Source: Naegleria gruberi
Taxonomy: Eukaryota
DNA length: 64,000 nt
Assembly: GCA_000004985.1 (NCBI GenBank)
Contig: GG738864.1
Strand: one strand, 5' to 3'
Numbering within the stretch: position 1 is the first letter of the stretch; every line of letters starts with the position of its first letter. The translations under genes and the position numbers were made by a program. Shown in pieces: positions 738-40,218 of the stretch. Under the pieces are notes generated by a model. It saw only the letters and a program-made list of their open reading frames with translations, was not told where the DNA came from and searched no databases.

Positions 738-3260
738 CTAAACGAGTTTATAATACTTGACTTCTGACATCATTACTTCAAAAATTTCTCTTGCAATGAG
801 GTTACTAGTTGAAGTGTAAGTGAAAATCCAAACACGAGCATTTCGTTCTACCAAGTAACATACTTTCTTCAATGTATGTCCAGAGTAGGTTGTTGAGGCT
901 AGCTCTACAATTTTTGCCTTCAGAGTTGGGACTTCACCCTCTGTTGAATCCACTTCAGAGTTTGATTGTTGAGAGTAGAGTGAAACTTCATAATCTACAT
1001 TCTTTACAGAAACAATTGTGCACGTCTTGAGAACTTGCTCCTTGAAAGTGGTGGAGTAAAATTGTTCAAGCAAGCTTCCACTATTTTCCATTGACACTCC
1101 TGTGAAGTTTGAAGCTTGTGCTCCATAATCTTCTATTCTATTCTTGTAGGTAGTATTTCCAAAATTTACATAGGTCACAAAAACATTTTCCAATGTTTCT
1201 CTAGATCTTGTTTGGTTTGGATTCTTGTTGGCAAGATATTGAATAGGATGATAGAGAATGAGTTTGTAATCCTGAGATCTCTTTCCAAAATCACCAACGC
1301 CAAAGTGTCGCACCATTTCATCCTCTCCAGAACAAGCATCTGCCTCTATTCTAAGTGATGGAATAAAGCACATTGGTACAGACAATACAATACCATCCCC
1401 GTCCAAATTTGAGGTCTTTCTCTTGAGATCAGAAATGGATTTGACTGTGAAAAATTCCTTTACAAGAATGTCAATCCAAGCAGCACCATCAATTGGTGGA
1501 ATATTGTTATTACTATACACGAGATTACTACTGAATATTTCTGCTGCATCCTCATCTTCGAACATGGAACCTCCAATACTTGAAAATGCAGCTGAGAGTC
1601 TCTTTTTCATCTTTTTAGAATTGTTTTGTGCAATGGTGTTTGAATTTTTTCTCTTGGAAATGATATCATTATTAGGAGAGGTACAATCTGCTGTTTTATC
1701 AACAGAATCCACAAGACCTGAAGTATTAGATGAAGAACGGCTGAGATTTCCACTATTTCTATTGGATGATGGAGGACTCACTGTTAATTTGGAAATGTCA
1801 TCATGATTAGTTGATGTTGGAGGTGTACCATTTCCATTATTGAATAATTCCTGTTGAATATTAATCGAAGGAATCAACAAGCCCTTTGTTGGTACAGTTA
1901 AATTCAATGAATATCCCAGAATATTCTCAGATTCCCTCCTTGTTGTTGTTAGCATTAAACAATACAATAATCCATTAGAATCTTGAATAAAGTAAATCTT
2001 CTTGTACAATAATTTCTGTGGTAACAATTCATGGTGAAATTGAATAATAAAGTAGAGAGCCTTCTTCTCTGGTTGAATATGTTTATCCACCACATGAGTA
2101 ATTCCCTTCACTAATTTTGGTTCGAGCATTGTTGAATGACTACTAGAGGATGACGATGAAGGAGATGATGGAGAAGGTGAAGCAGCAACAACAGAAACTT
2201 GTCTCATCATACTCGATGAAGGTGTTCTATGTAAATTATTATTACCACCCGAAGAAGAACAAGAATTTGATGAATCATAATTCCTCGACAATTCTTGAAT
2301 ATCTTCAATGGCCAACTGGGCCTCCTTCTCAATACTATGTGGTGAGAAGGTTACATAAATCTCCAGGAAATCCTTCTCAAAGTTTCTATCATAGCTGGAG
2401 AAGAAGATTTTTTGTTGAATATTGTTATTTGTGTTGCTCGTTGTTGTTGTGGCGCCATTTTGTTGTTGAGAATTTACTTGGGTCGTAGATAATTGGTTAT
2501 TATTGGCGGGAGAATTTGTTAAAGAATTTGTGTTCACTGGTGTTGGAGGTTGAAGGCTTGCTGATGATGGTGAAGAAGATGATGACGATGATGATGATGA
2601 TGGTGGAGATTGGCTTATATTAATATTATTATTATTATTACTATTATTTACATTATTTAATTGTTGTTGTTGTGGGGAATAATTAGAAATATTATTGCTA
2701 TTACTACTTCCATATTGAAGTAATTGTACTTTCCAATCGTGAGGTAAATAGACAGAGTAGTATAATTCGGTAATTAATTGGAGAGATTCCACTGATTGGA
2801 GTTGAATAGGAATGATCGTATGATCTGATGATGACGAGGAAATCATTGATGATGTATGATGATGAAAAGTACTTCCACCACTACTCGAATATTGATGATG
2901 AACAAAAGTACCACTACTTCCATTACTAGTAGATGGTTGATGATGGTAATTAATATTATTATTATTTGAAGAGGATGATGAGGTACCAATCATGAGTGGT
3001 GAATTACTTCTCGAGGTATTGAGTGGATCGCCACTTCTTGGAGTTTCGGCTACTTGATTCGAATTTGTCATGGTGGTAACAGCTACTTGATTGGTGCCTG
3101 TGAGGAAATTCATTCGACCACGACTGAATTTTCTGCCACTATTTGATGGTGATGATGAATTACTGTTACTACCTCCATTATTCGAAACATTGCTTGGGTA
3201 GTGCATGGATACGGATGATTTGCTGTCTTCATCTCGAGATCCTGAAGAAACGTTTCCCAT
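738..3260 (-). CDS. Large N-myristoylation-motif protein with long S/N/Q low-complexity tracts and a conserved-looking C-terminal globular region. Function unknown.
   Basis: The 738..3299 ORF is long and uninterrupted on the minus strand. The first ATG is at 3260 and gives MGNVSSGS..., which fits the N-myristoylation consensus M-G-x-x-x-S. Poly-S, poly-N and poly-Q tracts are present (the CAA/AAT/TCA repeats visible at 2560-2700). The C-terminal roughly 250 aa are non-repetitive. Confidence 0.55.
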   Translation of the reverse strand: MGNVSSGSRDEDSKSSVSMHYPSNVSNNGGSNSNSSSPSNSGRKFSRGRMNFLTGTNQVAVTTMTNSNQVAETPRSGDPLNTSRSNSPLMIGTSSSSSNNNNINYHHQPSTSNGSSGTFVHHQYSSSGGSTFHHHTSSMISSSSSDHTIIPIQLQSVESLQLITELYYSVYLPHDWKVQLLQYGSSNSNNISNYSPQQQQLNNVNNSNNNNNINISQSPPSSSSSSSSSSPSSASLQPPTPVNTNSLTNSPANNNQLSTTQVNSQQQNGATTTTSNTNNNIQQKIFFSSYDRNFEKDFLEIYVTFSPHSIEKEAQLAIEDIQELSRNYDSSNSCSSSGGNNNLHRTPSSSMMRQVSVVAASPSPSSPSSSSSSSHSTMLEPKLVKGITHVVDKHIQPEKKALYFIIQFHHELLPQKLLYKKIYFIQDSNGLLYCLMLTTTRRESENILGYSLNLTVPTKGLLIPSINIQQELFNNGNGTPPTSTNHDDISKLTVSPPSSNRNSGNLSRSSSNTSGLVDSVDKTADCTSPNNDIISKRKNSNTIAQNNSKKMKKRLSAAFSSIGGSMFEDEDAAEIFSSNLVYSNNNIPPIDGAAWIDILVKEFFTVKSISDLKRKTSNLDGDGIVLSVPMCFIPSLRIEADACSGEDEMVRHFGVGDFGKRSQDYKLILYHPIQYLANKNPNQTRSRETLENVFVTYVNFGNTTYKNRIEDYGAQASNFTGVSMENSGSLLEQFYSTTFKEQVLKTCTIVSVKNVDYEVSLYSQQSNSEVDSTEGEVPTLKAKIVELASTTYSGHTLKKVCYLVERNARVWIFTYTSTSNLIAREIFEVMMSEVKYYKLV

Positions 3261-3436
3261 GAGTTGTTTGTGATGAGTTGATAATAGGAAAGATGGCAAG
3301 GGAAACGATGCTTTCTGTTGCCAGTTTAGAGAAGCTTTTTTTTGCTGTTGTCACATAATTGGAGATTGATGACAGATAGCATGGAATTGGCATACATGAC
3401 AGTACGTTAACAAATAAGGTGGACAAGAGAACCTTT

Positions 3437-3765
3437 AGTTTTTAATTATGCATAGCACTCAACCAAGATTTTTCACATTATAATTTTGTCTAAAACGAGA
3501 AGACTCTAGTTGATTGTAAGCAGATTGGTTTTTTCATCTGAAAGAATGAATCAAAGAATGAATTGATAGTCTTCTTTTGGTTTAGAAAAGGTCATTAATG
3601 AACTTCGAAATGTTTTAATGAATTGTAATGGCAACATTAGGTTCGTTTAGTTTAAAATGAAAAGAACCATGCATCAAATAAGATCACGTTATGAAGTCAC
3701 ATACAGTTGTTGCTCAAAATATTTTGAATCACGTTCTGAAAAACTCCAGTAAATAAATTCTATTA
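3437..3765. repeat. Copy A of a diverged direct repeat of about 270-330 bp. Copy B is at about 4600-4865.
   Basis: Shared blocks by eye: 'tttttaat(t/a)atgcatagca', 'ttttcacatta', 'tgtctaaaa(c/a)gagaa', 'tagttgattgtaa', and 'gaattgtaatggcaacatt...aaatgaaaagaacca...atcaaataagatcacgttatgaagtcacat...gttgttgctcaaaatattttgaatcacgttctgaaaa'. Copy A carries an extra roughly 80 bp insertion. Confidence 0.55.
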
Positions 3766-3923
3766 TTTCTATATCCAAAAGGAATAATTTTTTAGATATT
3801 TAATATTATTGACATGTACATTGATTATGGATTTATAGAATCGTTTCACAATTGTGTATTACGCATAATAGTATTTAATAGTATTATGAAATTCCTAATA
3901 TTAAAAAATTATTAAAATAAAAA

Positions 3924-4478
3924 ATGTCGCAAGATGAAGAACAAATTCCTTGTCCTTTAGATTTCTCTTTCAAATCATCACTACTCATTCAAAAATTCGA
4001 AACGGAACATTGTAAACAACTCAGAGAATTAACCTTGGTTGTGATCGGAGCCTTTAGGAAACAATCAGATAATATGAGCAACAATTTTACAAAGTTTATG
4101 GTTGCATGTTTGGATAAATCAAGTGGAAAGTACTTTTCTGTTTGTATGGTCGGAACTGGATTCACTCAAGAATTAAGAGAGGACCTTTCGAGTAGATTAT
4201 CTCAATTGATTATTCCAGAACCATTGGAAAATTATGTTTTCAATAAGGATCAAATGGCAGAGGTATGGTTTCGACCAGTTACAATATTTGAAATTCAAGT
4301 GGCTGATATTTGTCTATCTGGTATTCATAAGGCCGGTTTTGGAGTGTTTAAGGAGGGAAGTGGTTTAGGATTGAGATTTCCAAGATTTGTTAAGGAAAGA
4401 AAATTTATGAAGCCAGAGGATATTACTACTGTGGATGAATTAATTAAATTGTACAAAATAATGAATAATTATTATTAA
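3924..4478 (+). CDS. Stand-alone ORF encoding only the C-terminal OB-fold/adenylation-adjacent part of an ATP-dependent DNA ligase (ligase I/III-like, including conserved motif VI). Likely a gene fragment, relic or neo-gene.
   Basis: ATG at 3924 in an A-rich context (aataaaaaATG). The protein contains ...LTLVVIGAFRKQ..FSVCMVGTGFTQELREDL...EVWFRPVTIFEIQVADICLS...GLGLRFPRFVKERKFMKPEDITT. LRFPRF..R.DK is ligase motif VI. The ORF has none of the N-terminal catalytic KxDGxR core. It is distinct from the LIG4 gene at 36770-40029. Confidence 0.55.
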   Translation: MSQDEEQIPCPLDFSFKSSLLIQKFETEHCKQLRELTLVVIGAFRKQSDNMSNNFTKFMVACLDKSSGKYFSVCMVGTGFTQELREDLSSRLSQLIIPEPLENYVFNKDQMAEVWFRPVTIFEIQVADICLSGIHKAGFGVFKEGSGLGLRFPRFVKERKFMKPEDITTVDELIKLYKIMNNYY

Positions 4479-4599
4479 TTATTATTAATTATTTATATAT
4501 AGTATTAATAATTATAAAATTAATTTGGTGAGTTTACAAAGGGAAATTATCCTTTTTATTAAGGTGATTTTCAAATTTTGGATTGACCTTCTGTTAGTT

Positions 4600-4865
4600 T
4601 TTAATAATGCATAGCATCTTTTCACATTAGTTGTGTCTAAAAAGAGAAAACGCTTGCTGAATGTTTAGTTGATTGTAAAGCATTGGAGAAAATGAATTGG
4701 CAGAAAAGTACACAAATGAACCTCAACTTGTTAATGAATTGTAATGGCAACATTTCACGTTTCCTTTACAATGAAAAGAACCAATCATCAAATAAGATCA
4801 CGTTATGAAGTCACATCTCGTTGTTGCTCAAAATATTTTGAATCACGTTCTGAAAACTATTTATT
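4600..4865. repeat. Copy B of the diverged direct repeat (see 3437-3765). It overlaps the 5' leader and start of the next ORF.
   Basis: Aligns by eye to 3437-3765 at roughly 75-85% identity. It lies directly upstream of, and partly within, the 4744..5379 ORF. Confidence 0.55.
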
Positions 4866-4950
4866 GAAAGCTCTCCAATCCCAAACAACCAACTCATCAA
4901 AAAAACAAAACAATTCAAAATACTTACAAAAATTGAAACTCAATTGCAAG

Positions 4951-5379
4951 ATGAAGAATTTAGCAACACCTATGGTTGAACCATGTTATTTCTTTTTCAA
5001 TGGAGGTTGTTATAGACCTTGCGGTCATTCTCACTGTCCACCTCAACACGAATTGGCAATTTGGAAACAAATTTGGGCTAAAAGAAACTCAAAGAAACAA
5101 AAATACCAAACCGGTGTTTCCAATGAAGAAATGGAATATTTCAAGAAGAAGATGAGAGAGTATTTGGAACAACAAGAAGAAATGAATATGAAAATCAGAA
5201 TGCAATCCAGAGAAATTGAAAGACAACACGATACTATCAATGCCATGAAATGTCAAAGATCATCATTGATTGCTGCTCAATCACCAGTAACTGTTAATAA
5301 TAATTATGTAAATGTTGTGAATGTTCCAGAAAATGGTAATTTCAGAATTAGAACCACTCATACCAGATATTTGCAATAG
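4951..5379 (+). CDS. Small protein with a CCCH-like Cys/His cluster followed by a charged coiled-coil region. The start is uncertain: the ORF is open from 4744 inside repeat B.
   Basis: The 4744..5379 ORF has an in-frame ATG at about 4951 (MKNLATPMVEPCYFFFNGGCYRPCGHSHCPP...). The C-x7-C-x3-C-x3-H spacing is close to, but not a canonical, CCCH finger. A heptad-like charged segment (EYLEQQEEMNMKIRMQSREIERQ) follows. Confidence 0.4.
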   Translation: MKNLATPMVEPCYFFFNGGCYRPCGHSHCPPQHELAIWKQIWAKRNSKKQKYQTGVSNEEMEYFKKKMREYLEQQEEMNMKIRMQSREIERQHDTINAMKCQRSSLIAAQSPVTVNNNYVNVVNVPENGNFRIRTTHTRYLQ

Positions 5380-5546
5380 ATAGACAAGAAATTTCCAAAT
5401 ATGTAAATTGAAAAAAATGTAAAAAAACAAAAAAATGTAAAAACAAACAAAATTAATAAAAATAATTTCAAAAAATTTCTTTATTCAACTTTTTCACAAA
5501 CATTAAAAACTCTTCACACTATTCTCTTCTATTTTTCTATTATTAT

Positions 5547-7082
5547 TTAAAAAGGATTTCTTTGATTGAAAATTTGTGGTTGATAATTCAAATGATATGG
5601 ATAGTATTGAGTTGGATGTTGTCCGTAATAGAGAGTTCTCTGTCTAATTGGAATGTGATGATTATTGGCAGGAATATGTGGCATGTAAAAGACAGGAGCT
5701 GCTTCAGTATTATCAGCTGCATGCAAACTTCTAACTTGTGGTTGACCAGTTTGTTGTTGAGGAGGAGCTCCTTGTTGTTGTTGTTGACCTTGGGCAGGAG
5801 CTTGTTGTGGAGGAGGACCCATTGGTTGACCACCTTGTTGTGGTTGACCACCTTGTTGTTGCTGTTGTTGTTGTTGAGGAACAGGTAATGGTTGTTCTTG
5901 ACCTCCACTAATACAGAAAACTTCACTCTTAGCCAAACATCTAACATTAAAAGGTCCAACAAAGACTGGATTCACACAAATAAAATAGGAACATCCCGGA
6001 GTTGTTTGTAAAGCTCCGCCCCACATGATAATGAATGGAATTTTACCACTTCTTGGTGGAGCTGCAGCTTGTTGATTGACATTAATTAATCTGACATCAT
6101 CTACAACATATTCTCTGTTTTGATCTCTGATTTGGAATACACTGACTGAGAATTGATCGAAATTGAAATTTTCAGAGAATTCCAAGAATTGAGTTGTGTT
6201 GAATTGCCATTGAGCATTAGCAACTGGTTGACTAATGTTGAAACTACCAGATGATAATGAAAACATGCCTGATTTGGCAAAACAGACACCTTCATCAGCT
6301 TGATTAGTTTGGTTATTACTCTTTGGATCAACTCCTGCTTCATTCGAAACTAACTCTGCACACAAGTAATACATGTTACCATATTTGACATCTGGCATTG
6401 TTGGAACCAGATATGATAACTCACCAAATGGCTTACTCTTATCAAGAATATATGAATTCTTTGAGTTTTCTACTTGAGTATCAGCTTGTTGACCACCATT
6501 CTTCCACAAACTAATGGAAATTGAAATTGAACCCTGAGCACCATTTTCAACACCATTTCCAAAGAATTGACTATATACAACTGAGTAGTTTTGGCCAGTG
6601 AACCATTTGGTATATTGTTGTGGATAATCCAATGTCAAGTAAGGTCTTCTTGGAGCTCCACCAGAGTTGACCAAATCTGGATTGTAAGAACAATAGAAAC
6701 CACCAACTGCATAACAATCAGTAGAGTGAGTAATTGAGGTATTAGTAGGATTGAGACATGCATAATAGGAACAGCTTTGAGTTGCATTCACTGGAATGAC
6801 CCAAGGGACGTAACCAGAAGCTCCTGGAATGTTAACTTCACTTGTCATGACTAATTCATCAGCTTGATCTTGTCTTTGTCTGTACAGTGTGAGTGTTGCA
6901 TTTTGTCCACTCAAGACTCCACCACCAATGTAGAGTAAGGGAAGGACACGACCTGTCGGAAGAACTGCGGTGTTATCCGGGATAATTACATACAAGGCAG
7001 TGGTGGTGAGGGAAATTGCCAATATATAGAAAAGTGCAAGTAGCAAAATTGAATAGCTATACTTCATTCGATTGTTGTTCAT
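5547..7082 (-). CDS. Secreted or cell-surface glycoprotein with a C-terminal P/Q/G-rich, prion-like tail.
   Basis: ATG at 7082 (aaaaaaaATG). The N-terminal hydrophobic segment (SILLLALFYILAISLTTTA) looks like a signal peptide or signal anchor. There are many N-x-S/T sequons and Cys pairs. The last roughly 120 aa are Q/P/G repeats, the CAA/CCA repeats at 5740-5880. Confidence 0.6.
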   Translation of the reverse strand: MNNNRMKYSYSILLLALFYILAISLTTTALYVIIPDNTAVLPTGRVLPLLYIGGGVLSGQNATLTLYRQRQDQADELVMTSEVNIPGASGYVPWVIPVNATQSCSYYACLNPTNTSITHSTDCYAVGGFYCSYNPDLVNSGGAPRRPYLTLDYPQQYTKWFTGQNYSVVYSQFFGNGVENGAQGSISISISLWKNGGQQADTQVENSKNSYILDKSKPFGELSYLVPTMPDVKYGNMYYLCAELVSNEAGVDPKSNNQTNQADEGVCFAKSGMFSLSSGSFNISQPVANAQWQFNTTQFLEFSENFNFDQFSVSVFQIRDQNREYVVDDVRLINVNQQAAAPPRSGKIPFIIMWGGALQTTPGCSYFICVNPVFVGPFNVRCLAKSEVFCISGGQEQPLPVPQQQQQQQQGGQPQQGGQPMGPPPQQAPAQGQQQQQGAPPQQQTGQPQVRSLHAADNTEAAPVFYMPHIPANNHHIPIRQRTLYYGQHPTQYYPYHLNYQPQIFNQRNPF

Positions 7083-18495: not shown

Positions 18496-20816
18496 TTATT
18501 GCACTAAACATTTCTTTTGTGGACGAACTTTACTACAATAATTGTCATCTCTGGTGACGGCAATTGTTCTCAAAATGACACTACTCAAATCATCAATGCC
18601 ATATCCTGTTTTGGAGCTAGTTTCAATATAAGTGGCACAACCCATCTTTTTGGCCATCAACTCTCCTTGTTCGAATGTGATTGGTTTTTCTTCATATTTA
18701 AGAATGAACTCCTTATTAAGAATTGAATCAGTACGATAGTCAATCTTGGTATTCACTAATGCCACAGGAGTGTCAGGACAGTGGTGTCTGATTTCTGGAA
18801 GCCATTTGGTGACAACATTGAAAAATGAAGCCTCTGACACACAACTAAAGTTCACTAAGAACAAAGATGTCCCTGGGTAGGACTATTACAATATTATTAC
18901 AAAAAATATAATTTCAATACTTACCAATGGACGCAATCTAAATAATATTAAGAAAACAAAAATAAAAATGATTAATTACCTATCATAATCTAAAATTGAT
19001 TAATTTCAATTAAATCCATTCAAAAAAAACTTACCTTCAGGACCAGCAGTATCCCTTTGTAAATGTTAACAATTATTAAAGAGATAGCTCAAATAACTTA
19101 CCATAGACCGATTGAATAAGTCTTGTCTTCAACTTTTACACTGATATTGTGATTGTCAAACACAGTTGGAATATAATCATTTGGATAATCTCCAGAAGTA
19201 TACCGTATTAATAGTGTTGTTTTACCAACTGCTCCATCTCCTACCGCAACAACCTTAAAAACACCATAAGGAGGATACTTGTCTAACATTTCAACCACAT
19301 GAGAATAGTTTAAAAGTTCAGACTTGGAACAATACTGTCTACCATCTGTACGTTGTTTTACCTCCTCAATTTTCAATGTTCTTTCAATATTCTTCTTTTC
19401 AACTTTTGACATGATGGCTTGAACAGCTTGAATGAGATTTTCCTTGTAATTTGACTTTTTACGTAAATAGGAATCGAAAATTCTTGATTGAGTGGTATCA
19501 AAAACATATTTACGAAGCACATAATCATAGGAACCAACAGTTTGCTTTGATGCCTTCTTAAAATCACTCAATTTTTTGAAATAAAAATCTTCCCAATATT
19601 GATCTTCAGTTGTTAAAGTGCAAATTCTCAATGATTTGGAAACCAAATGTAATTTCATTAAATCTTGAATGCTAAGAAATGATAGAACTGTTCTGAAAAT
19701 GTCATCATTCACCTTCTCATTAAATAAGTCAATATTAAATGAGCTTGTTTCTGATTTGATTATTGATTTTCCATCTTTCTTACTTGAAGTAATAGACGTA
19801 GTTGTTGGTGGAGAAACTGTAAAAACGTCAGGAGTCTTTTGAAATAATCCTCCAACTACAAAATAAGTAATAGAGGAATCAGTGGAAGGAATTTGCACAA
19901 GAGCATGAAGTACAGGTTGAGCTTCTTCCTTATTAGAATCATTGAAAATGGATGAAAGAGAATGAGTTGTATCAATCTTCCAACCTTGGCTAACATTTCC
20001 CAAATCAAGACATGTACAATCTGTGAAATTTTGATTTTGATTACAACCACCAACACTATACAATGTGTTTCCTTCCAAAACCATTGAATGTCCATATCTA
20101 GCAAACTGTTCACTCAAATTTGATGCAATAATCTCAGCATTAACTACCAATCTGTCAACACTCTCTACCAATGAATCAAGTGAAATCTTAATTGTATCTC
20201 TAATAATGGAATTAGCTGTTTTACCTCCATGAATATACCACTCTCCTGTTTCCTGATTCAAAACAGATGCATGATGATATCTCTTTGCAATTTGTTGTGA
20301 ATTTGATTCAATTTCCACAACTTTCCATTCAAATGTAGTCAAATTCAATTTGAATAATTCATTGGATGCAAAGCTATTATTATCATAACCACCAAACACA
20401 AATAATTGATCCTTAAAAACCACAGCTGATTGACCATAACGAGGAGAAATCAAATCTGATCCACTAGTCTGTAACTGTGTCCATAAATTATGTTCAAATT
20501 GATACAACCAAACATCTTTATGAAAACCATTCGATTTACCACCAAATAAAATCATTTCGTCTCGATTTCTCAAATAGGCAGAGTGACAATTTCTTGCACA
20601 TGGAATTAATTGTTGTTCTTGTTGATCAATTGATGTTAAATTCCTCCACAATTGTGTTGTAACATTAATTTCAATTAGATCATTACAATAAATGAGTGGT
20701 CTTGCTGAGGAAATGTCTGGATTTTTAATATAACCTCCGAATAGATAGATTTTATTGTTGTCTCTGTAAACACCGCTGTGACCAATACGAAGTGGTAGTG
20801 TGGAGAGTAATGACAT
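18496..20816 (-). CDS. Kelch-repeat beta-propeller, an F-box-like motif, and a C-terminal Rac/Rho-family small GTPase domain in one polypeptide. Five exons including three micro-exons.
   Basis: complement(join(18496..18882, 18925..18937, 18980..18989, 19035..19054, 19102..20816)). ATG at 20816 (aaaaaATG). The Kelch motifs are KIYLFGGY, MILFGGKS, QLFVFGGYDN, EWYIHGGK and TLYSVGGCN. The F-box-like motif is IFRTVLSFLSIQDLMKLHLVSKSL. The GTPase G1 motif is KVVAVGDGAVGKTTLLIRYT..IPTVFDN..YSIGLW. The micro-exons spliced with GTAAGT/GTAATT donors restore W|DTAGPE|DYD|RLRPL|SYP...LFLVNFSCVSEASFFNVVTKWLPEIRHHCPDTPVALVNTKIDYR. Introns are 42-47 nt. Confidence 0.8.
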
Positions 20817-36769: not shown

Positions 36770-39700
36770 TTAGACAGAGATTTCTGGAATTAATCTTCTT
36801 TCTTCTACACATTTCCTAACCCAATCCCCAGAGACAAGTTTGAGGTTTACTCTAGCTGCCTTTCTCTTTAGTGATTGTAAGCGGGTGGTATTTTCACTCT
36901 CATCATGCACAATATGTGTCACTTCAGTGGTGAGTAAATTACTGACCTTTCCTCCGTGTAAACGAATGTAAACTTCCAAAGTGTCCAATCCAAGAATCAG
37001 TTCTGAGCTTGGATCTCCAAACTTTTCATACTTGTCAATAAAAGCTACAACTCCCTTGAAGAATGATGTTTGTGATGTTTTAATCTCGTATCGTGAATTA
37101 ATCATATCAATTTGCTTTGAGTCTAGAACGAAATACTTGGATGAAAGTGAGGCTAATTGAAGCGAGTTTCTCAATGATTCCACCGTAGCATCAAACAAAT
37201 ATTCATCTTGAAATTCGTCCATTTGCTCTTTGAATGAGAGCAATGTGGCTTGAGAAGTATAAATCATGTATCCTGGATGGAATCTCTGCAGAGAGCCATA
37301 TATTACCGATTCAATCAACCACTTGTAATGAATAATATCGCGATCTCCTAGTGGATTCTTTCTATTTTGTGAGGAACTTATCCAATTTCTTACAGTAATA
37401 TCTTTATAAATTCATTTACATTAAAAGTTAAATTTGAAACTTACTATTAGTATTGGCAGCGATGAGATATTGATTCTTATGATCGTTAGGGTTCTGAACT
37501 TTAGTTCCACTATTGGAAACTATCAATTGTTCAATATCATACTTGGATTTATGTTCGTCTCCATTGAAAACAACAAATTCCAATCCTTTAAATAAGCTAG
37601 AGGTCTTATCCAGTTTAGACATATCATAATCAAAGAAATGTGAAACAGCAGCTGTTGCCTTTCTTGATTTTGGTTCCACTTCTGTAAACGTTCCATCAGG
37701 ATTTTGAACCATCTTTTTTCTCTTTTGTTTCTTGATATCATTGTGTGAAACAACAGAGTCCATATTGGCAGCTCTTCTCTTGTGATTACCATTCCTTGAT
37801 ATTTCAATCATTTCCTCTAATCCTTGTAAATCCAGACATTCATTCCAATCCTTATCGTTTCTTATTGATACAACTCTTGGGAATCTTAGTGTGACTCCTG
37901 TTTTAAATTTGGTACTCTCCTGAAAAGAGTATCCCTTAATTTCCAAAATCTTGGAACTTGAATTGTTAATAAAACTTGAAAATAAAAACCTACTGTTTCG
38001 GTTCAATATATACATCAGGCATTTCACCTGCTCCTGGAATCCATTGACCATAAAACTTAGGCAACTTGGTCTTGTCAAAAGGCTTCCAATGAGATTCTAA
38101 ATCTTTTTGTAGAGCCAACAATTCAATGTTGGTATATCCACTTCCTACTTTACAAAATGAGTGAAAAACTTGATTTTCATTGCTTGCTTCATTTTCCTCA
38201 TCCAAATTATCGAGAGCATCCGTGTTCCCCAGACTGTGTTTTGACCTTGTGGCTACAGCTAACAGAAAGTGTGAAACTGATTTTCTCTTAAATTTGGTTC
38301 CATAGAATCCTCCAACAATAATTACATCCAATGTCTCACCCATACCATCGACATGATCAGGTTTCAATTTGATCCACTTTCTCTCACCTGGAATATAGAC
38401 GCCTCCTGTTGGTTTGAGCATGATACCTTCATCTCTATTCATGATGGCAATATCCAACTGCTCGTAAACTTCCTTCTCTGATGATACTGGAGTTTGAGGT
38501 ACCAACTCGAGAACATGGCTCTGGAGATTAATGATATTCTCCAGATAGGTTCTTCTCTTCTTGAGTGGATATTGTGATAGGTCCTTATCTTTCAAATAGA
38601 CTAAATCAAAGACCATGTAGCAAAATTGTTCATTTGTATCGGATGTATCATTCAGAGCATGAGTTCTATTGTGTCCAAATTCCTTAAAGGCCTCCAGCTC
38701 AGTATTCCAAATGAGAAACTCTCCATCTAATATACAAACTTTTGCCTTGATATTATTTCTAATGATGGGTGAAAACTTTGGACCGTACAAGCTCGTATAG
38801 TCCTTGCCATTACGTGTAAAGAACATGATTTCAGATTCCTTCTTGTGTACCAGGATACGTTCTCCGTCATATTTGGGTTCAATGACATATTCATCAGAGG
38901 AGAGAGTTTCAGCCAATTTAGCTGGATGCAACAATGAAGCAAGCATTGGTTTGAACATTGAAAAGACTCTCAATTCAGCTGTTGTGAATTTAAACTTTGG
39001 ATCGAGACACTTTGTAATGACCTCTCTCAGATCAGTACATGAATTGAACAACTCGAGTGCATTCGGATGAAAATGATTCAGAATAGTGGTGTGTTGAGTT
39101 CCAATTCTTAAATCTTTGAGAATAATTCTGAGAATCCACTTTTGTTCAAAGCATGAAGTGCTCTTGAGAATGTCCAACAGAATCTTCTTTTTTTTATCAT
39201 TATCCCCAGCCATTGATAGTTCAGTTAGTTTTTCATTAATAAAGAATACAGTTAGATTTTTCGATGAGGACCAACCTCTCTTTTGCAAGACTTGAAAGCA
39301 AATATCCGAAAAGCTGTTTCCAGTTCCTTTAGATGGATCTTTCCACTTTTTCAATCTCAGAGCATCTTCACACGTTTGTGGAAGAGCCAGAATTTCAATA
39401 TAATACTTGGCAATTTTCGACTCTTTCAAGCCATAAGTCAGTCTTTCTCTATCCAATTGAGGGAGAAGTAATCTCATAAATTGAAACAAATCACTTCGAC
39501 AACTCACGAAAATCTTATCAAAGATTGCCTTCTTCTCCTTATGTTTGTTATTTTCCGAAAGTTTTTCAAAGTATTTACACAATGTTGCAAATTGAACCCT
39601 ACACGATGGAAGGTTAGGATCATACACTGGTGGAGGATGAGCAGGTAGAGGTGTTCCATTCGAATTACCAATCATACCAGCAAAGAGATTGTTATTATTA

Positions 39701-40029
39701 TTAATATTTTGTTCATTGTTGGTTCGAGATGAATTTTCCTTATTGTGAAGGGTATTACTTTTAGTACTATTGGCACCACTCGTTTGAGAGTTTGATTTAC
39801 TAGTATCGTCATCTTCATCTTCATCATCGTCATCATCAGCATTGATGAATATATCCATTCGTGAGTCGTTCATCATGGCACGAACGGCCGATGGACAACT
39901 GTTTTCAATTTCTTCATCGTTGTGTAGTATTAGATTATTCATATTGTTGCTGTGCTTGTTGTTGGTTGTTGTTTCCGAAAGAGTTTCATCCTCATCATCA
40001 TCCACAACAAGGAAGGGATTTCTAAACAT
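36770..40029 (-). CDS. LIG4: DNA ligase IV (ATP-dependent DNA ligase with tandem C-terminal BRCT domains). Three exons.
   Basis: complement(join(36770..37401, 37445..37956, 37994..40029)). ATG at 40029 (aaaaaaaATGttt). An acidic/N-rich N-terminus leads into the catalytic core with motif I, EPKYDGERILVH. It continues ...LDGEFLIWN..., GIMLK, ..RKWIKLKPDH, and an OB-fold ending GEMPDVYIEPK. A 37-nt intron (GTAGGT...caag) joins it to HSKILEIKGYSF...LRFPRVVSIRNDKDWNEC (motif VI) and BRCT1 (LFKGLEFVVFNGDEHKS...). A 43-nt intron (GTAAGT) leads to a linker plus BRCT2 (GGKVSNLLTTEVTHIVHDE...). Confidence 0.85.
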
Positions 40030-40218
40030 TTTTTTTAATTTATTCAAACGAAAACTTTTGGCGCCAAAATACACAATTTGAAATATATTTGGATCCAGAA
40101 TTGTGAAAGATCAATTTCTTATTTGGTGATAATTATGAATGAACAATGATTTTCAAAGGCTTGTTCAAAAAATTTGCCCAAACTACAATTATATGAGGAA
40201 CAAACATAAATCAATTAT

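What the first reader, a model, noticed from the sequence alone, without database searches (positions are those of the whole stretch)
3437..4870. Orphan DNA-ligase OB-fold mini-gene bracketed by a ~300-bp diverged direct repeat
The 3924-4478 ORF encodes only the C-terminal OB-fold / motif VI part of an ATP-dependent DNA ligase (..CMVGTGFTQELREDL..LRFPRFVKERK..). It has its own A-rich ATG context. It clearly differs from the intact LIG4 at 36770-40029, so it derives from a ligase I/III-type paralogue. It sits between two copies of a roughly 270-330 bp repeat (3437-3765 and 4600-4865, about 75-85% identical, with one copy carrying an roughly 80 bp indel). The second copy forms the leader and start of the downstream small-protein ORF at 4744/4951-5379. 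This looks like a local segmental duplication or gene-fragment capture that may have produced a truncated ligase relic or a neo-gene, plus a duplicated promoter/leader module.
Basis: partly seen in the sequence, partly recalled or inferred. Interest (0 to 1): 0.6.

Follow-up and report, generated by a model that had tools for sequence, protein, structure and literature searches.

The report
Stand-alone ligase OB-fold gene, Naegleria
This Naegleria gruberi locus carries a small intact gene that encodes only the last domain of DNA ligase I, has lost residues that full-length ligases conserve in that domain, has one sister copy elsewhere in the genome, and sits between two copies of a ~300-bp upstream segment: a real but modest case of a new gene born from a gene fragment.

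Summary
ORF 3924-4478 (+), annotated as NAEGRDRAFT_66795 (184 aa), encodes only a DNA-ligase-I-type OB-fold domain. No adenylation or DNA-binding domain lies nearby. A direct repeat flanks it: 3435-3742 and 4594-4856, with 227 of 248 aligned columns identical and 75 indel bases.

New findings:
- **Paralogue.** N. gruberi has a second copy, NAEGRDRAFT_74433 (49% identical), with the same start and many shared derived residues. One truncation was therefore followed by a duplication.
- **Lost ligase residues.** The protein keeps the fold core and LRFPRF. It has lost residues that are 87-100% conserved in 113 Lig1s, including the motif VI Asp-Lys and the human R771 equivalent.
- **Signs of selection.** The ORF is still open, the alignment to human LIG1 has a single one-residue gap, and codon usage matches host genes. 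In a substitution-only simulation about 1% of ORFs stayed open at comparable divergence.
- **The repeat is a local duplication.** It is not a transposon, LTR or RNA gene. Its gene-proximal 130 nt are almost indel-free and hold two ATCACGTTNTGAA boxes and a 14-bp palindrome found nowhere else in the window.

Best reading: a lineage-restricted, non-catalytic neo-gene made from a ligase fragment, with a duplicated promoter-proximal module shared with the neighbouring orphan gene. Expression, parent gene and function are untested. Interest is modest.

The parts
738..3260 (-). Upstream divergent gene: low-complexity ORF with no Pfam domain. Its likely ATG (MGNVSS...) is at 3260-3258. It bounds the 660-bp intergenic region that holds repeat copy A and leaves no room for upstream ligase exons.
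   Evidence: ORF list, sequence read directly, no Pfam hit.
3435..3742 (+). Repeat copy A (308 bp), 181 bp upstream of the mini-gene ATG.
   Evidence: Local alignment to 4594-4856: 227/248 identical, z = 76 against shuffles. Also.
3613..3742 (+). Gene-proximal, almost indel-free core of copy A. It contains box 1 ATCACGTTATGAA (3683-3695), the palindrome TCAAAATATTTTGA (3714-3727) and box 2 ATCACGTTCTGAA (3728-3740).
   Evidence: Blocks: 117/126 identical with 6 indel bases, against about 69 indel bases in the 5' part; the boxes occur only inside the two repeat copies in the window.
3924..4478 (+). Mini-gene NAEGRDRAFT_66795 (XP_002677864.1, D2VDC5), 184 aa. Residues ~13-35 look like a degenerate remnant of the ligase motif V region. 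Residues 36-179 form a Lig1-type OB-fold with a degenerate motif VI (LRFPRFVKERKFM).
4594..4856 (+). Repeat copy B (263 bp), 116 bp after the mini-gene stop and 94 bp before the ATG of the next gene. It carries the same boxes (4797-4809, 4842-4854) and palindrome (4828-4841).
4744..4950 (+). Open in-frame leader running from copy B into the downstream ORF. Its coding status is doubtful.
   Evidence: ORF list. A prokaryote-style gene call on an environmental contig starts at the ATG equivalent to 4771. The codon-usage signal is weak. The equivalent frame in copy A is closed by a stop (read).
4951..5379 (+). Downstream orphan gene NAEGRDRAFT_66796, 142 aa. By eye it has a C-x7-C-x3-C-x3-H pattern. 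It has no Pfam family and no homologues.

Best explanation
**What it is.** The window is Naegleria gruberi chromosomal DNA. ORF 3924-4478 is a real, lineage-restricted protein-coding gene. It arose when the 3' end of a ligase-I-type gene, from about motif V to the native C-terminus, was copied without the DNA-binding and adenylation domains and gained a new start codon. That truncated gene later duplicated, giving this copy and NAEGRDRAFT_74433 on another scaffold.

**Shown.**
- The product folds as a ligase OB domain.
- It keeps the fold core and the LRFPRF segment. That segment includes the equivalents of human F872, R871, R874 and R879.
- It has lost the equivalents of D758, G767, G769, R771, D881 and K882.
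- There is no adenylation domain at the locus, so it cannot be a ligase.
- Its reading frame has stayed open and almost free of indels through divergence that should have closed a neutral sequence.

**Inferred.**
- It acts as a non-catalytic OB-fold module, most plausibly binding duplex or nicked DNA, or competing with or modulating ligase I at such sites.
- The flanking ~300-bp direct repeat is a local duplication of a promoter-proximal segment. As a result the mini-gene and the neighbouring orphan gene each have the same cis module just upstream: two ATCACGTTNTGAA boxes around a 14-bp palindrome. They are therefore probably co-regulated.
For: **Identity and domain**
- Organism and annotation.
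- OB-fold only: Pfam PF04679 at E 4e-16; human LIG1 757-899 at about E 1e-19.
- AlphaFold2 with a 33-sequence alignment gives pLDDT 88.5. The best Foldseek hits are human LIG1, rmsd 1.8 A over 146 columns.
- No other ligase domain lies nearby, and it is not LIG4-derived.

**Paralogue**
- P0012 = NAEGRDRAFT_74433 is 49% identical with the same N-terminus.
- The two share derived states that are absent or rare in 113 Lig1s, such as D49, N53, T56 and Q82. Both are about equally far from Lig1 (30.5% and 28.2% identity).

**Residue retention and loss**
- Tallied from the table: 23 of 47 scorable columns that are at least 80% conserved in Lig1 are kept.
- Lost are D37, G46, G48, R50, D161 and K162, which are 87-100% conserved.
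- Among the 62 short OB-domain hits, P0001 and one unrelated protein (P0130) lack both the loop residues and the motif VI Asp-Lys. P0012 lacks the loop residues, and its annotated product ends before motif VI.

**Constraint**
- The chance of 184 stop-free codons in sequence of this composition is 1e-6 to 1e-7.
- In a substitution-only simulation, 1.1% of ORFs remain open at 73% amino-acid identity and 0.2% at 66%.
- The neighbouring repeat shows 75 indel bases at only ~9% substitution divergence. The ORF aligns to human LIG1 with a single one-residue gap.
- The frame-specific codon-usage margin is 0.25-0.28 nats per codon, equal to that of long genes in the window.

**Repeat**
-. There is no homology beyond it.
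- Indels are concentrated in the distal part.
- The boxes are unique to the repeat within the window.
Against: - No expression data could be reached. Neither gene is mentioned in the searchable literature.
- No orthologue appeared in 5.8 billion protein clusters, 1.84 billion representatives or JGI metagenomes. Conservation beyond N. gruberi is therefore unproven, and dN/dS could not be computed because the paralogue's DNA was not retrievable.
- The paralogue's annotated product stops at 127 aa, so that copy may be decaying.
- Loss of invariant residues is equally what a decaying fragment would show.
- The AlphaFold model leans on an alignment made of real ligases; the single-sequence model was poor (pLDDT 37).
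- The regulatory role of the repeat rests only on its position, its indel gradient and its internal boxes.
- One environmental near-identical strain shows 0 differences in copy B, but with about 1% divergence that is not significant.
Confidence: 0.55

Rival explanations
1. Non-functional relic. The ORF is a dead fragment of a ligase I paralogue left by a partial duplication. It is open only because the truncation is recent or by luck, and it does nothing.
For: Invariant ligase residues are lost. No orthologues exist outside N. gruberi. The paralogue's annotated product is truncated at 127 aa. There is no expression evidence.
Against: The truncated start is shared by two paralogues that are only 49% identical and about equally distant from Lig1, so the truncation is old. 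At that divergence about 1% or fewer of neutral ORFs stay open, even ignoring indels. Indels are frequent in adjacent non-coding DNA but nearly absent from the ORF. Codon usage carries a full in-frame signal.
Confidence: 0.25
2. Transposon-mediated capture. The two repeats are the terminal repeats of a mobile element (LTR/TRIM-like, or a MITE pair) that picked up a ligase fragment.
For: The layout is repeat, 851-bp unique insert, repeat, in direct orientation.
Against: Read directly:
- The repeat ends are not TG...CA.
- There is no target-site duplication (AACCT before copy A, CTATT after copy B).
- No primer-binding site follows copy A, and no polypurine tract abuts copy B.
- No terminal inverted repeats are present.

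No further copies occur in 64 kb, in viral contigs or in JGI metagenome contigs.
Confidence: 0.05
3. Mis-annotated terminal exon. The ORF is the last exon of a full ligase gene whose other exons lie elsewhere.
For: Other short OB-domain 'proteins' in the databases are evidently terminal exons or contig-end fragments of ordinary ligases.
Against: The next gene upstream is on the opposite strand and starts 660 bp away. No adenylation or N-terminal ligase domain lies anywhere on the + strand of the window. The product lacks residues that every real ligase fragment keeps. The paralogue starts at the same methionine.
Confidence: 0.03
4. Foreign origin. The fragment came from a giant virus or other horizontally transferred ligase rather than from the host ligase I.
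For: N. gruberi's own ligase I was not seen among the hits that could be named, so a host parent is not demonstrated.
Against: The best matches are ordinary eukaryotic Lig1s from algae, fungi, animals and amoebozoa, all at 28-38% identity with no special affinity. No close relative exists in IMG/VR viral contigs. Codon usage matches the host.
Confidence: 0.05
5. The repeat is a small structured RNA gene or a coding exon, not a regulatory segment.
For: The core is 92% conserved over 99 nt. An ORF (MKRT...) runs through it in copy B.
Against: There is no Rfam or tRNA hit. Folding energies are no better than shuffles on either strand (z +0.2 to +0.7). All 5 core differences in the MKRT frame are non-synonymous, and copy A's frame ends in a stop (read). 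The codon signal is weak or absent. No protein family contains the peptide.
Confidence: 0.05

Closest known systems
Eukaryotic DNA ligase I (LIG1/Cdc9), OB-fold domain (Pfam PF04679)
   Same: Residues 36-179 align with human LIG1 757-899 at 32% identity. The predicted fold superposes at 1.8 A. LRFPRF is kept (human R871, F872, R874), as are R879, E843 and the W/F and G/F core positions.
   Different: There is no DNA-binding domain and no adenylation domain, so no KxDGxR lysine. The motif VI Asp-Lys (human D881/K882), the G-x-G-K-R loop including R771, and D758 are all replaced. Mean identity to Lig1 OB domains is 33%, against 47% among Lig1s themselves.
NAEGRDRAFT_74433 (XP_002670507.1), the only other family member found
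   Same: It has the same start (MS.xEE), the same truncation point and 49% identity. It shares many derived residues.
   Different: It lies on a different scaffold. Its annotated product ends at 127 aa, after the WF motif. Its DNA and neighbours could not be examined.
Degenerate second OB-fold ORF next to a ligase gene in an unidentified GC-rich eukaryote (L002, Logan ERR13731165_31825; protein P0130)
   Same: It is a separate ~200-aa ORF that is only a ligase OB domain. It starts just before the first OB strand and has a degenerate motif VI.
   Different: It sits 200 bp downstream of a ligase ORF that has its own complete OB domain, and it is 46% identical to that domain. It is therefore a tandem partial duplicate still beside its parent. 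The Naegleria gene has no ligase I next to it, and the two are not specifically related.
Partial gene duplicates and 5'-truncated gene copies that become new genes
   Same: The copy is anchored at the native 3' end of the parent coding sequence and lacks the 5' domains. It has a new start codon and an upstream segment also found beside the neighbouring gene.
   Different: No poly(A) remnant or target-site duplication is present that would mark retroposition. The mechanism of the copy is not identifiable.

Membership tests
ATP-dependent DNA ligase (ligase I type) | Nucleotidyltransferase domain with the motif I lysine (KxDGxR), Pfam PF01068 | tested here: not met
   Pfam finds only PF04679 in the ORF. 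tblastn with four full-length Lig1s finds no adenylation domain within 33 kb.
ATP-dependent DNA ligase (ligase I type) | N-terminal DNA-binding domain, Pfam PF04675 | tested here: not met
   Absent from the ORF and its surroundings.
ATP-dependent DNA ligase (ligase I type) | C-terminal OB-fold domain, Pfam PF04679 | tested here: met
   59.5 bits against a cut-off of 27.5. The structure model matches the LIG1 OB domain.
ATP-dependent DNA ligase (ligase I type) | Intact motif VI (LRFPRF...R.DK) | tested here: not met
   LRFPRF and R159 are kept. Asp (96% conserved) is replaced by Phe161 and Lys (100% conserved in 113 Lig1s) by Met162.
Processed (retroposed) gene copy | Poly(A) remnant at the 3' end and flanking target-site duplication | tested here: not met
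   The 3' flank is a (TAATTATTAT)n-like AT repeat, not poly(A). No short duplication is seen at the insert edges.
Processed (retroposed) gene copy | Lacks introns that are present in the parent gene | not testable with these tools
   The N. gruberi ligase I gene could not be retrieved.
LTR / TRIM-type element | Terminal direct repeats ending TG...CA, 4-6 bp target-site duplication, primer-binding site and polypurine tract next to the repeats | tested here: not met
   The repeats begin TTAG and end GAAAA. The flanks are AACCT and CTATT. No TGG... follows copy A, and the nearest purine run (AAAGGGAAA) lies ~47 nt from copy B.
MITE / TIR transposon | Terminal inverted repeats and multiple dispersed copies | tested here: not met
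   No inverted repeat joins the repeat termini. There are only two adjacent copies in 64 kb, and none in two public collections.
Local segmental duplication | Two adjacent same-orientation copies with sharp homology limits and unrelated sequence beyond | tested here: met
   Alignment z = 76 for the repeat, and z between -0.3 and 1.3 for every flanking comparison.
Known structured RNA families (Rfam) or tRNA | Covariance-model or ARAGORN match | tested here: not met
   Only chance-level Rfam matches, E above 5. No tRNA. No excess folding energy.

The most novel reading that the evidence does not exclude
N. gruberi maintains a small family of stand-alone, catalytically dead ligase-I OB-fold proteins. 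They would act in trans on DNA nicks or on ligase I itself, as a nick-binding factor or a competitive modulator of ligation. This copy would be wired, through a duplicated cis-regulatory module, to be co-expressed with a neighbouring orphan zinc-finger-like protein. That would be a documented birth of a new single-domain gene from the tail of an essential replication enzyme.
Probability: 0.3. Interest if true: 0.5.

Novelty: new variant of a known kind. Interest (0 to 1): 0.3.

Why it matters
If the protein is made and functional, it is a clean natural example of a single domain of an essential, deeply conserved enzyme being released as an independent gene and kept after losing residues that full-length ligases conserve in that domain. 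It would also provide a ready-made isolated ligase OB domain for asking what that domain does on its own, such as DNA binding or interference with ligase I. An independent degenerate OB-only ORF lies next to a ligase in another eukaryote (L002), which hints that such partial duplications recur. If it is not functional, it is an ordinary lineage-specific gene fragment. The duplicated upstream segment with paired boxes is a candidate cis-regulatory element in an organism whose promoters, to my knowledge, are little characterised.

Tried and rejected
**Data that could not be obtained**
- Paralogue DNA and any N. gruberi context. The positional index holds no N. gruberi record: searches failed, and a control gene from the window also failed. 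The absence of P0001 there therefore says nothing about expression.
- N. gruberi ligase I. Twenty representative hits were looked up by name and none is Naegleria, so the parent gene was not identified.
- The AlphaFold-database fold library was not available.

**Searches that found nothing**
- More family members: word-indexed searches with the protein and with the two-paralogue profile, an exhaustive HMMER search, JGI metagenome contigs and viral contigs. Only the two N. gruberi proteins form the family.
- The repeat elsewhere: exact-core scans of viral contigs and JGI metagenome contigs.
- Homologues of the downstream orphan including its leader.
- Literature by locus tags and accessions. 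One RNA-seq paper had no supplementary files held.

**Readings rejected**
- The repeat as an RNA gene: Rfam, tRNA scan and folding were all negative.
- The repeat as a coding exon: no synonymous bias and no codon signal.
- Tandem duplication of a whole repeat-plus-gene unit: no residual similarity exists between the mini-gene segment and the downstream gene segment.

**Weak result**
- The single-sequence AlphaFold run was uninformative (pLDDT 37).
Full report
**Source and observation**

The window is Naegleria gruberi. The 184-aa product of ORF 3924-4478 (+) is identical to GenBank XP_002677864.1 / NAEGRDRAFT_66795, 'predicted protein', on a 441,990-bp contig. GC content is about 34%.

The ORF matches Pfam PF04679, the C-terminal region of ATP-dependent DNA ligases, at E 4.3e-16. 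It matches human LIG1 chains at about E 1e-19, with residues 36-179 aligned to LIG1 757-899. Archaeal ligases come next. LIG3 and LIG4 did not reach E = 1 by sequence.

AlphaFold2 with an alignment of 33 sequences gives pLDDT 88.5 and pTM 0.79, with residues ~31-180 confident. Foldseek places the model on human LIG1 at rmsd 1.8 A over 146 columns. One caveat applies: the alignment consists of real ligases, and the single-sequence run was poor.

**No hidden upstream exons**

tblastn with four full-length Lig1 proteins hits the window in only two places. One is 4029-4469, the OB domain (one query reaches 3954). The other is a LIG4-like gene on the minus strand at 37993-39342.

The gene upstream of the mini-gene is on the opposite strand, with its ATG at 3260, so the intergenic space is 660 bp. 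The LIG4-like gene is read here as multi-exon (36770-40074, minus strand) and has N-terminal, adenylation and BRCT domains. Its OB region is only 25% identical to the mini-gene over 56 residues.

**A paralogue**

An exhaustive HMMER search of 1.84 billion representatives found 1,337 ligase relatives. Only one of them aligns from residue 2: P0012, 127 aa. It is another N. gruberi protein, NAEGRDRAFT_74433, on a 233,110-bp contig.

The two proteins are 49% identical overall and 58% identical over residues 36-116. They start alike (MSQDEE / MSESEE) and share derived states that are absent or rare in 113 Lig1 OB domains. Examples are D49, N53, T56, Q82 and K69. Each is about equally far from Lig1, at 30.5% and 28.2% identity over the shared region.

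The simplest history is one truncation followed by duplication of the truncated gene, with roughly symmetric divergence afterwards. No further member was found in the word-indexed search of 5.8 billion clusters, with a two-sequence profile, in JGI metagenome contigs or in viral contigs.

**What the protein keeps and what it has lost**

I compared the protein with 113 full-length Lig1s.

Kept:
- L38, V39 and G42 of the first strand.
- C74, G77, G79 and F80.
- W115, F116, E123, S132 and G147.
- The whole LRFPRF segment (150-155), R159 and T168.

By the numbering of the alignment, these include the equivalents of human R871, F872, R874 and R879. F872 is one of the two phenylalanines that wedge into the minor groove in the LIG1-DNA structure. 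This rests on my own knowledge of Pascal et al. 2004. Entries with F872A/L variants are listed.

Lost:

| Mini-gene residue | Lig1 consensus | Conservation in 113 Lig1s | Human equivalent |
|---|---|---|---|
| T37 | Asp | 100% | D758 |
| K46 | Gly | 99% | G767 |
| S48 | Gly | 99% | G769 |
| N50 | Arg | 87% | R771 |
| F161 | Asp | 96% | D881 |
| M162 | Lys | 100% | K882 |

R771W is, from my own knowledge, a LIG1-deficiency variant, and a structure of that variant appears.

Residues ~13-35 still resemble the motif V region. K24 sits on the first motif V lysine, while I22, E26 and H29 replace W, K and Y. Several HMMER alignments reach back to query residues 10-24. The copy therefore begins inside the last strands of the adenylation domain and runs to the native C-terminus.

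Of 62 short (<350 aa) OB-domain hits, all keep the G-x-G-(K/R)-R loop and the motif VI Asp-Lys (wherever they cover those positions) except P0001, P0012 and one unrelated protein, P0130. P0012's annotated product ends before motif VI, so only its loop loss could be scored. The other short hits are ordinary ligase fragments. The Naegleria proteins are not.

**Relic or gene?**

- **Open frame.** With the window's composition, a 184-codon frame stays free of stops with probability about 1e-6, or 1e-7 with the ORF's own composition.
- **Simulation.** I applied random substitutions to this ORF. Only 3.8% of ORFs stay open at 81% amino-acid identity, 1.1% at 73% and 0.2% at 66%. If two paralogues at 49-58% identity diverged symmetrically, each lineage sits near 73%.
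- **Indels.** The simulation ignores indels. The neighbouring repeat shows how common they are in unconstrained DNA here: 75 indel bases at only ~9% substitution divergence. The ORF aligns to human LIG1 with a single one-residue gap.
- **Codon usage.** The in-frame codon model, trained on 26 long ORFs of the window, beats the out-of-frame models by 0.25-0.28 nats per codon. Long genes show the same margin.

Together these favour purifying selection on the reading frame since the truncation.

Several points count against this view:
- There is no orthologue outside N. gruberi.
- There are no expression data.
- The paralogue's annotated product is truncated.
- dN/dS is unavailable, because the positional index holds no N. 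gruberi DNA.

**The repeat**

The best local alignment pairs 3435-3742 with 4594-4856 (227/248 identical). Nothing outside these limits is similar: z runs from -0.3 to 1.3 for four flank comparisons, against 76 for the repeat. The layout is therefore repeat, 851 unique bp holding the mini-gene, repeat, then the next gene. It is not a tandem duplication of a whole repeat-plus-gene unit.

Substitution divergence is similar along the repeat (~8-10%), but indels are not evenly spread. About 69 indel bases fall in the distal 122 aligned columns and 6 in the proximal 126.

The proximal core contains three elements:
- ATCACGTTATGAA.
- 18 nt later, the perfect palindrome TCAAAATATTTTGA.
- Directly after that, ATCACGTTCTGAA.

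With one mismatch allowed, the box occurs four times in the window against 0.9 expected, and all four are inside the repeat copies. Even the 8-mer ATCACGTT occurs nowhere else. The exact palindrome occurs only in the repeat copies.

Other identities for the repeat were tested and rejected:
- **RNA gene.** Rfam gives only chance matches. There is no tRNA. Neither strand folds better than shuffles.
- **Coding exon.** In copy B an ORF (MKRTNHQIRSRYEV...) runs through the core into the downstream gene. A prokaryote-style gene call on a 99%-identical environmental contig (L001) uses that ATG. However, the five differences between the copies in that frame are all non-synonymous (M/N, Y/S, S/R), and copy A's frame ends at a TAA just past the repeat. 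The codon signal is weak or absent, and no protein family contains the peptide.
- **Mobile element.** LTR-type and TIR-type features are absent: no TG...CA ends, no target-site duplication, no primer-binding site or adjacent polypurine tract, and no terminal inverted repeats.

I read the repeat as a duplicated promoter-proximal or 5'-leader segment. Copy A ends 181 bp before the mini-gene ATG, and copy B ends 94 bp before the ATG of NAEGRDRAFT_66796. This is inference from position, the indel gradient and the internal boxes.

**Timing**

The repeat copies differ by about 9%, while the mini-gene paralogues are only 49% identical as proteins. Three scenarios are possible:
- The repeat was duplicated long after the mini-gene family arose, for example by later promoter duplication or by relocation of this copy.
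- Gene conversion between copies 1.1 kb apart keeps them similar.
- The mini-genes evolve very fast.

The data here cannot choose between these.

**Origin of the fragment**

The mini-gene is equally distant (28-38% identity) from Lig1s of green algae, fungi, flatworms, mites, dictyostelids and unnamed protists. No close viral relative was found. A host ligase I parent is the default, but N. gruberi ligase I itself could not be retrieved.

The copy is anchored at the parent's 3' end. That fits either a 5'-truncated retrocopy or a partial segmental duplication. No poly(A) remnant or target-site duplication is visible.

An independent analogue exists. In a Logan contig from a GC-rich eukaryote (L002), a ligase ORF with a complete OB domain is followed 200 bp later by a separate 209-aa ORF. 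That ORF is a second, degenerate OB domain, 46% identical to the first. Partial duplication of the ligase 3' end therefore recurs.

**Verdict**

The thing is a new variant of a known kind: a stand-alone, catalytically degenerate ligase-I OB-fold gene with one paralogue, plus a local duplication of an upstream module.

It is already in GenBank as an uncharacterised predicted protein, and the searchable literature does not mention it. Interest is modest (0.3), because function and expression are untested and partial duplicates are common.

Noticed in passing
L002:1-1860 (Logan ERR13731165_31825): In an unidentified GC-rich eukaryote, a ligase ORF with a complete OB domain is followed 200 bp downstream by a separate 209-aa ORF (P0130). 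That ORF is a second, degenerate OB domain, 46% identical to the first, with motif VI R/D/K replaced by V/R/A. It could be a tandem partial duplicate or an alternative terminal exon.
   Followed up: partly
protein P0011 (JGI metagenome, 634 aa, 'DNA ligase-1'): One ligase protein contains two OB-domain stretches in series. The first is degenerate and carries a long insertion; the second is canonical. This is another case of OB-domain duplication in a ligase I.
   Followed up: no
window 36770-40074 (-): LIG4-like gene on the minus strand, split over at least three ORF pieces that I read as exons. It has ligase N-terminal and adenylation domains and two BRCT-bearing pieces.
   Followed up: partly
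L001:1-976 versus window 4562-5541: An ENA metagenome contig (ERZ929261) is about 99% identical to this locus, so a close N. gruberi relative is present in an environmental sample. Within the 142-aa ORF, 4 of 5 differences change the amino acid, one inside the Cys/His pattern (Y to N). There are none in the 263-bp repeat copy B. The numbers are too small to test.
   Followed up: partly
window 4951-5379 (+): The orphan 142-aa protein NAEGRDRAFT_66796 has a C-x7-C-x3-C-x3-H pattern near its N-terminus (CYFFFNGGCYRPCGHSH) and a charged, probably helical middle. It has no Pfam family and no homologue in 5.8 billion clusters.
   Followed up: partly
window 738-3260 (-) and 5547-7082 (-): Both flanking genes are long, low-complexity (poly-N/S/Q) ORFs without Pfam domains. 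The first starts MGN.. (possible N-myristoylation signal). The second has a hydrophobic N-terminus and a Q/P-rich tail.
   Followed up: no
window 4464-4515: An AT-only microsatellite-like tract, (TAATTATTAT)n, begins within the last codons of the mini-gene and runs past its stop codon. It is unlike the A-rich tract after the neighbouring gene (5411-5466).
   Followed up: no
window 19098-20816 (-): An ORF combines Kelch repeats with the start of a Ras-family GTPase domain at its C-terminal end. It is probably one exon of a larger multidomain gene.
   Followed up: no
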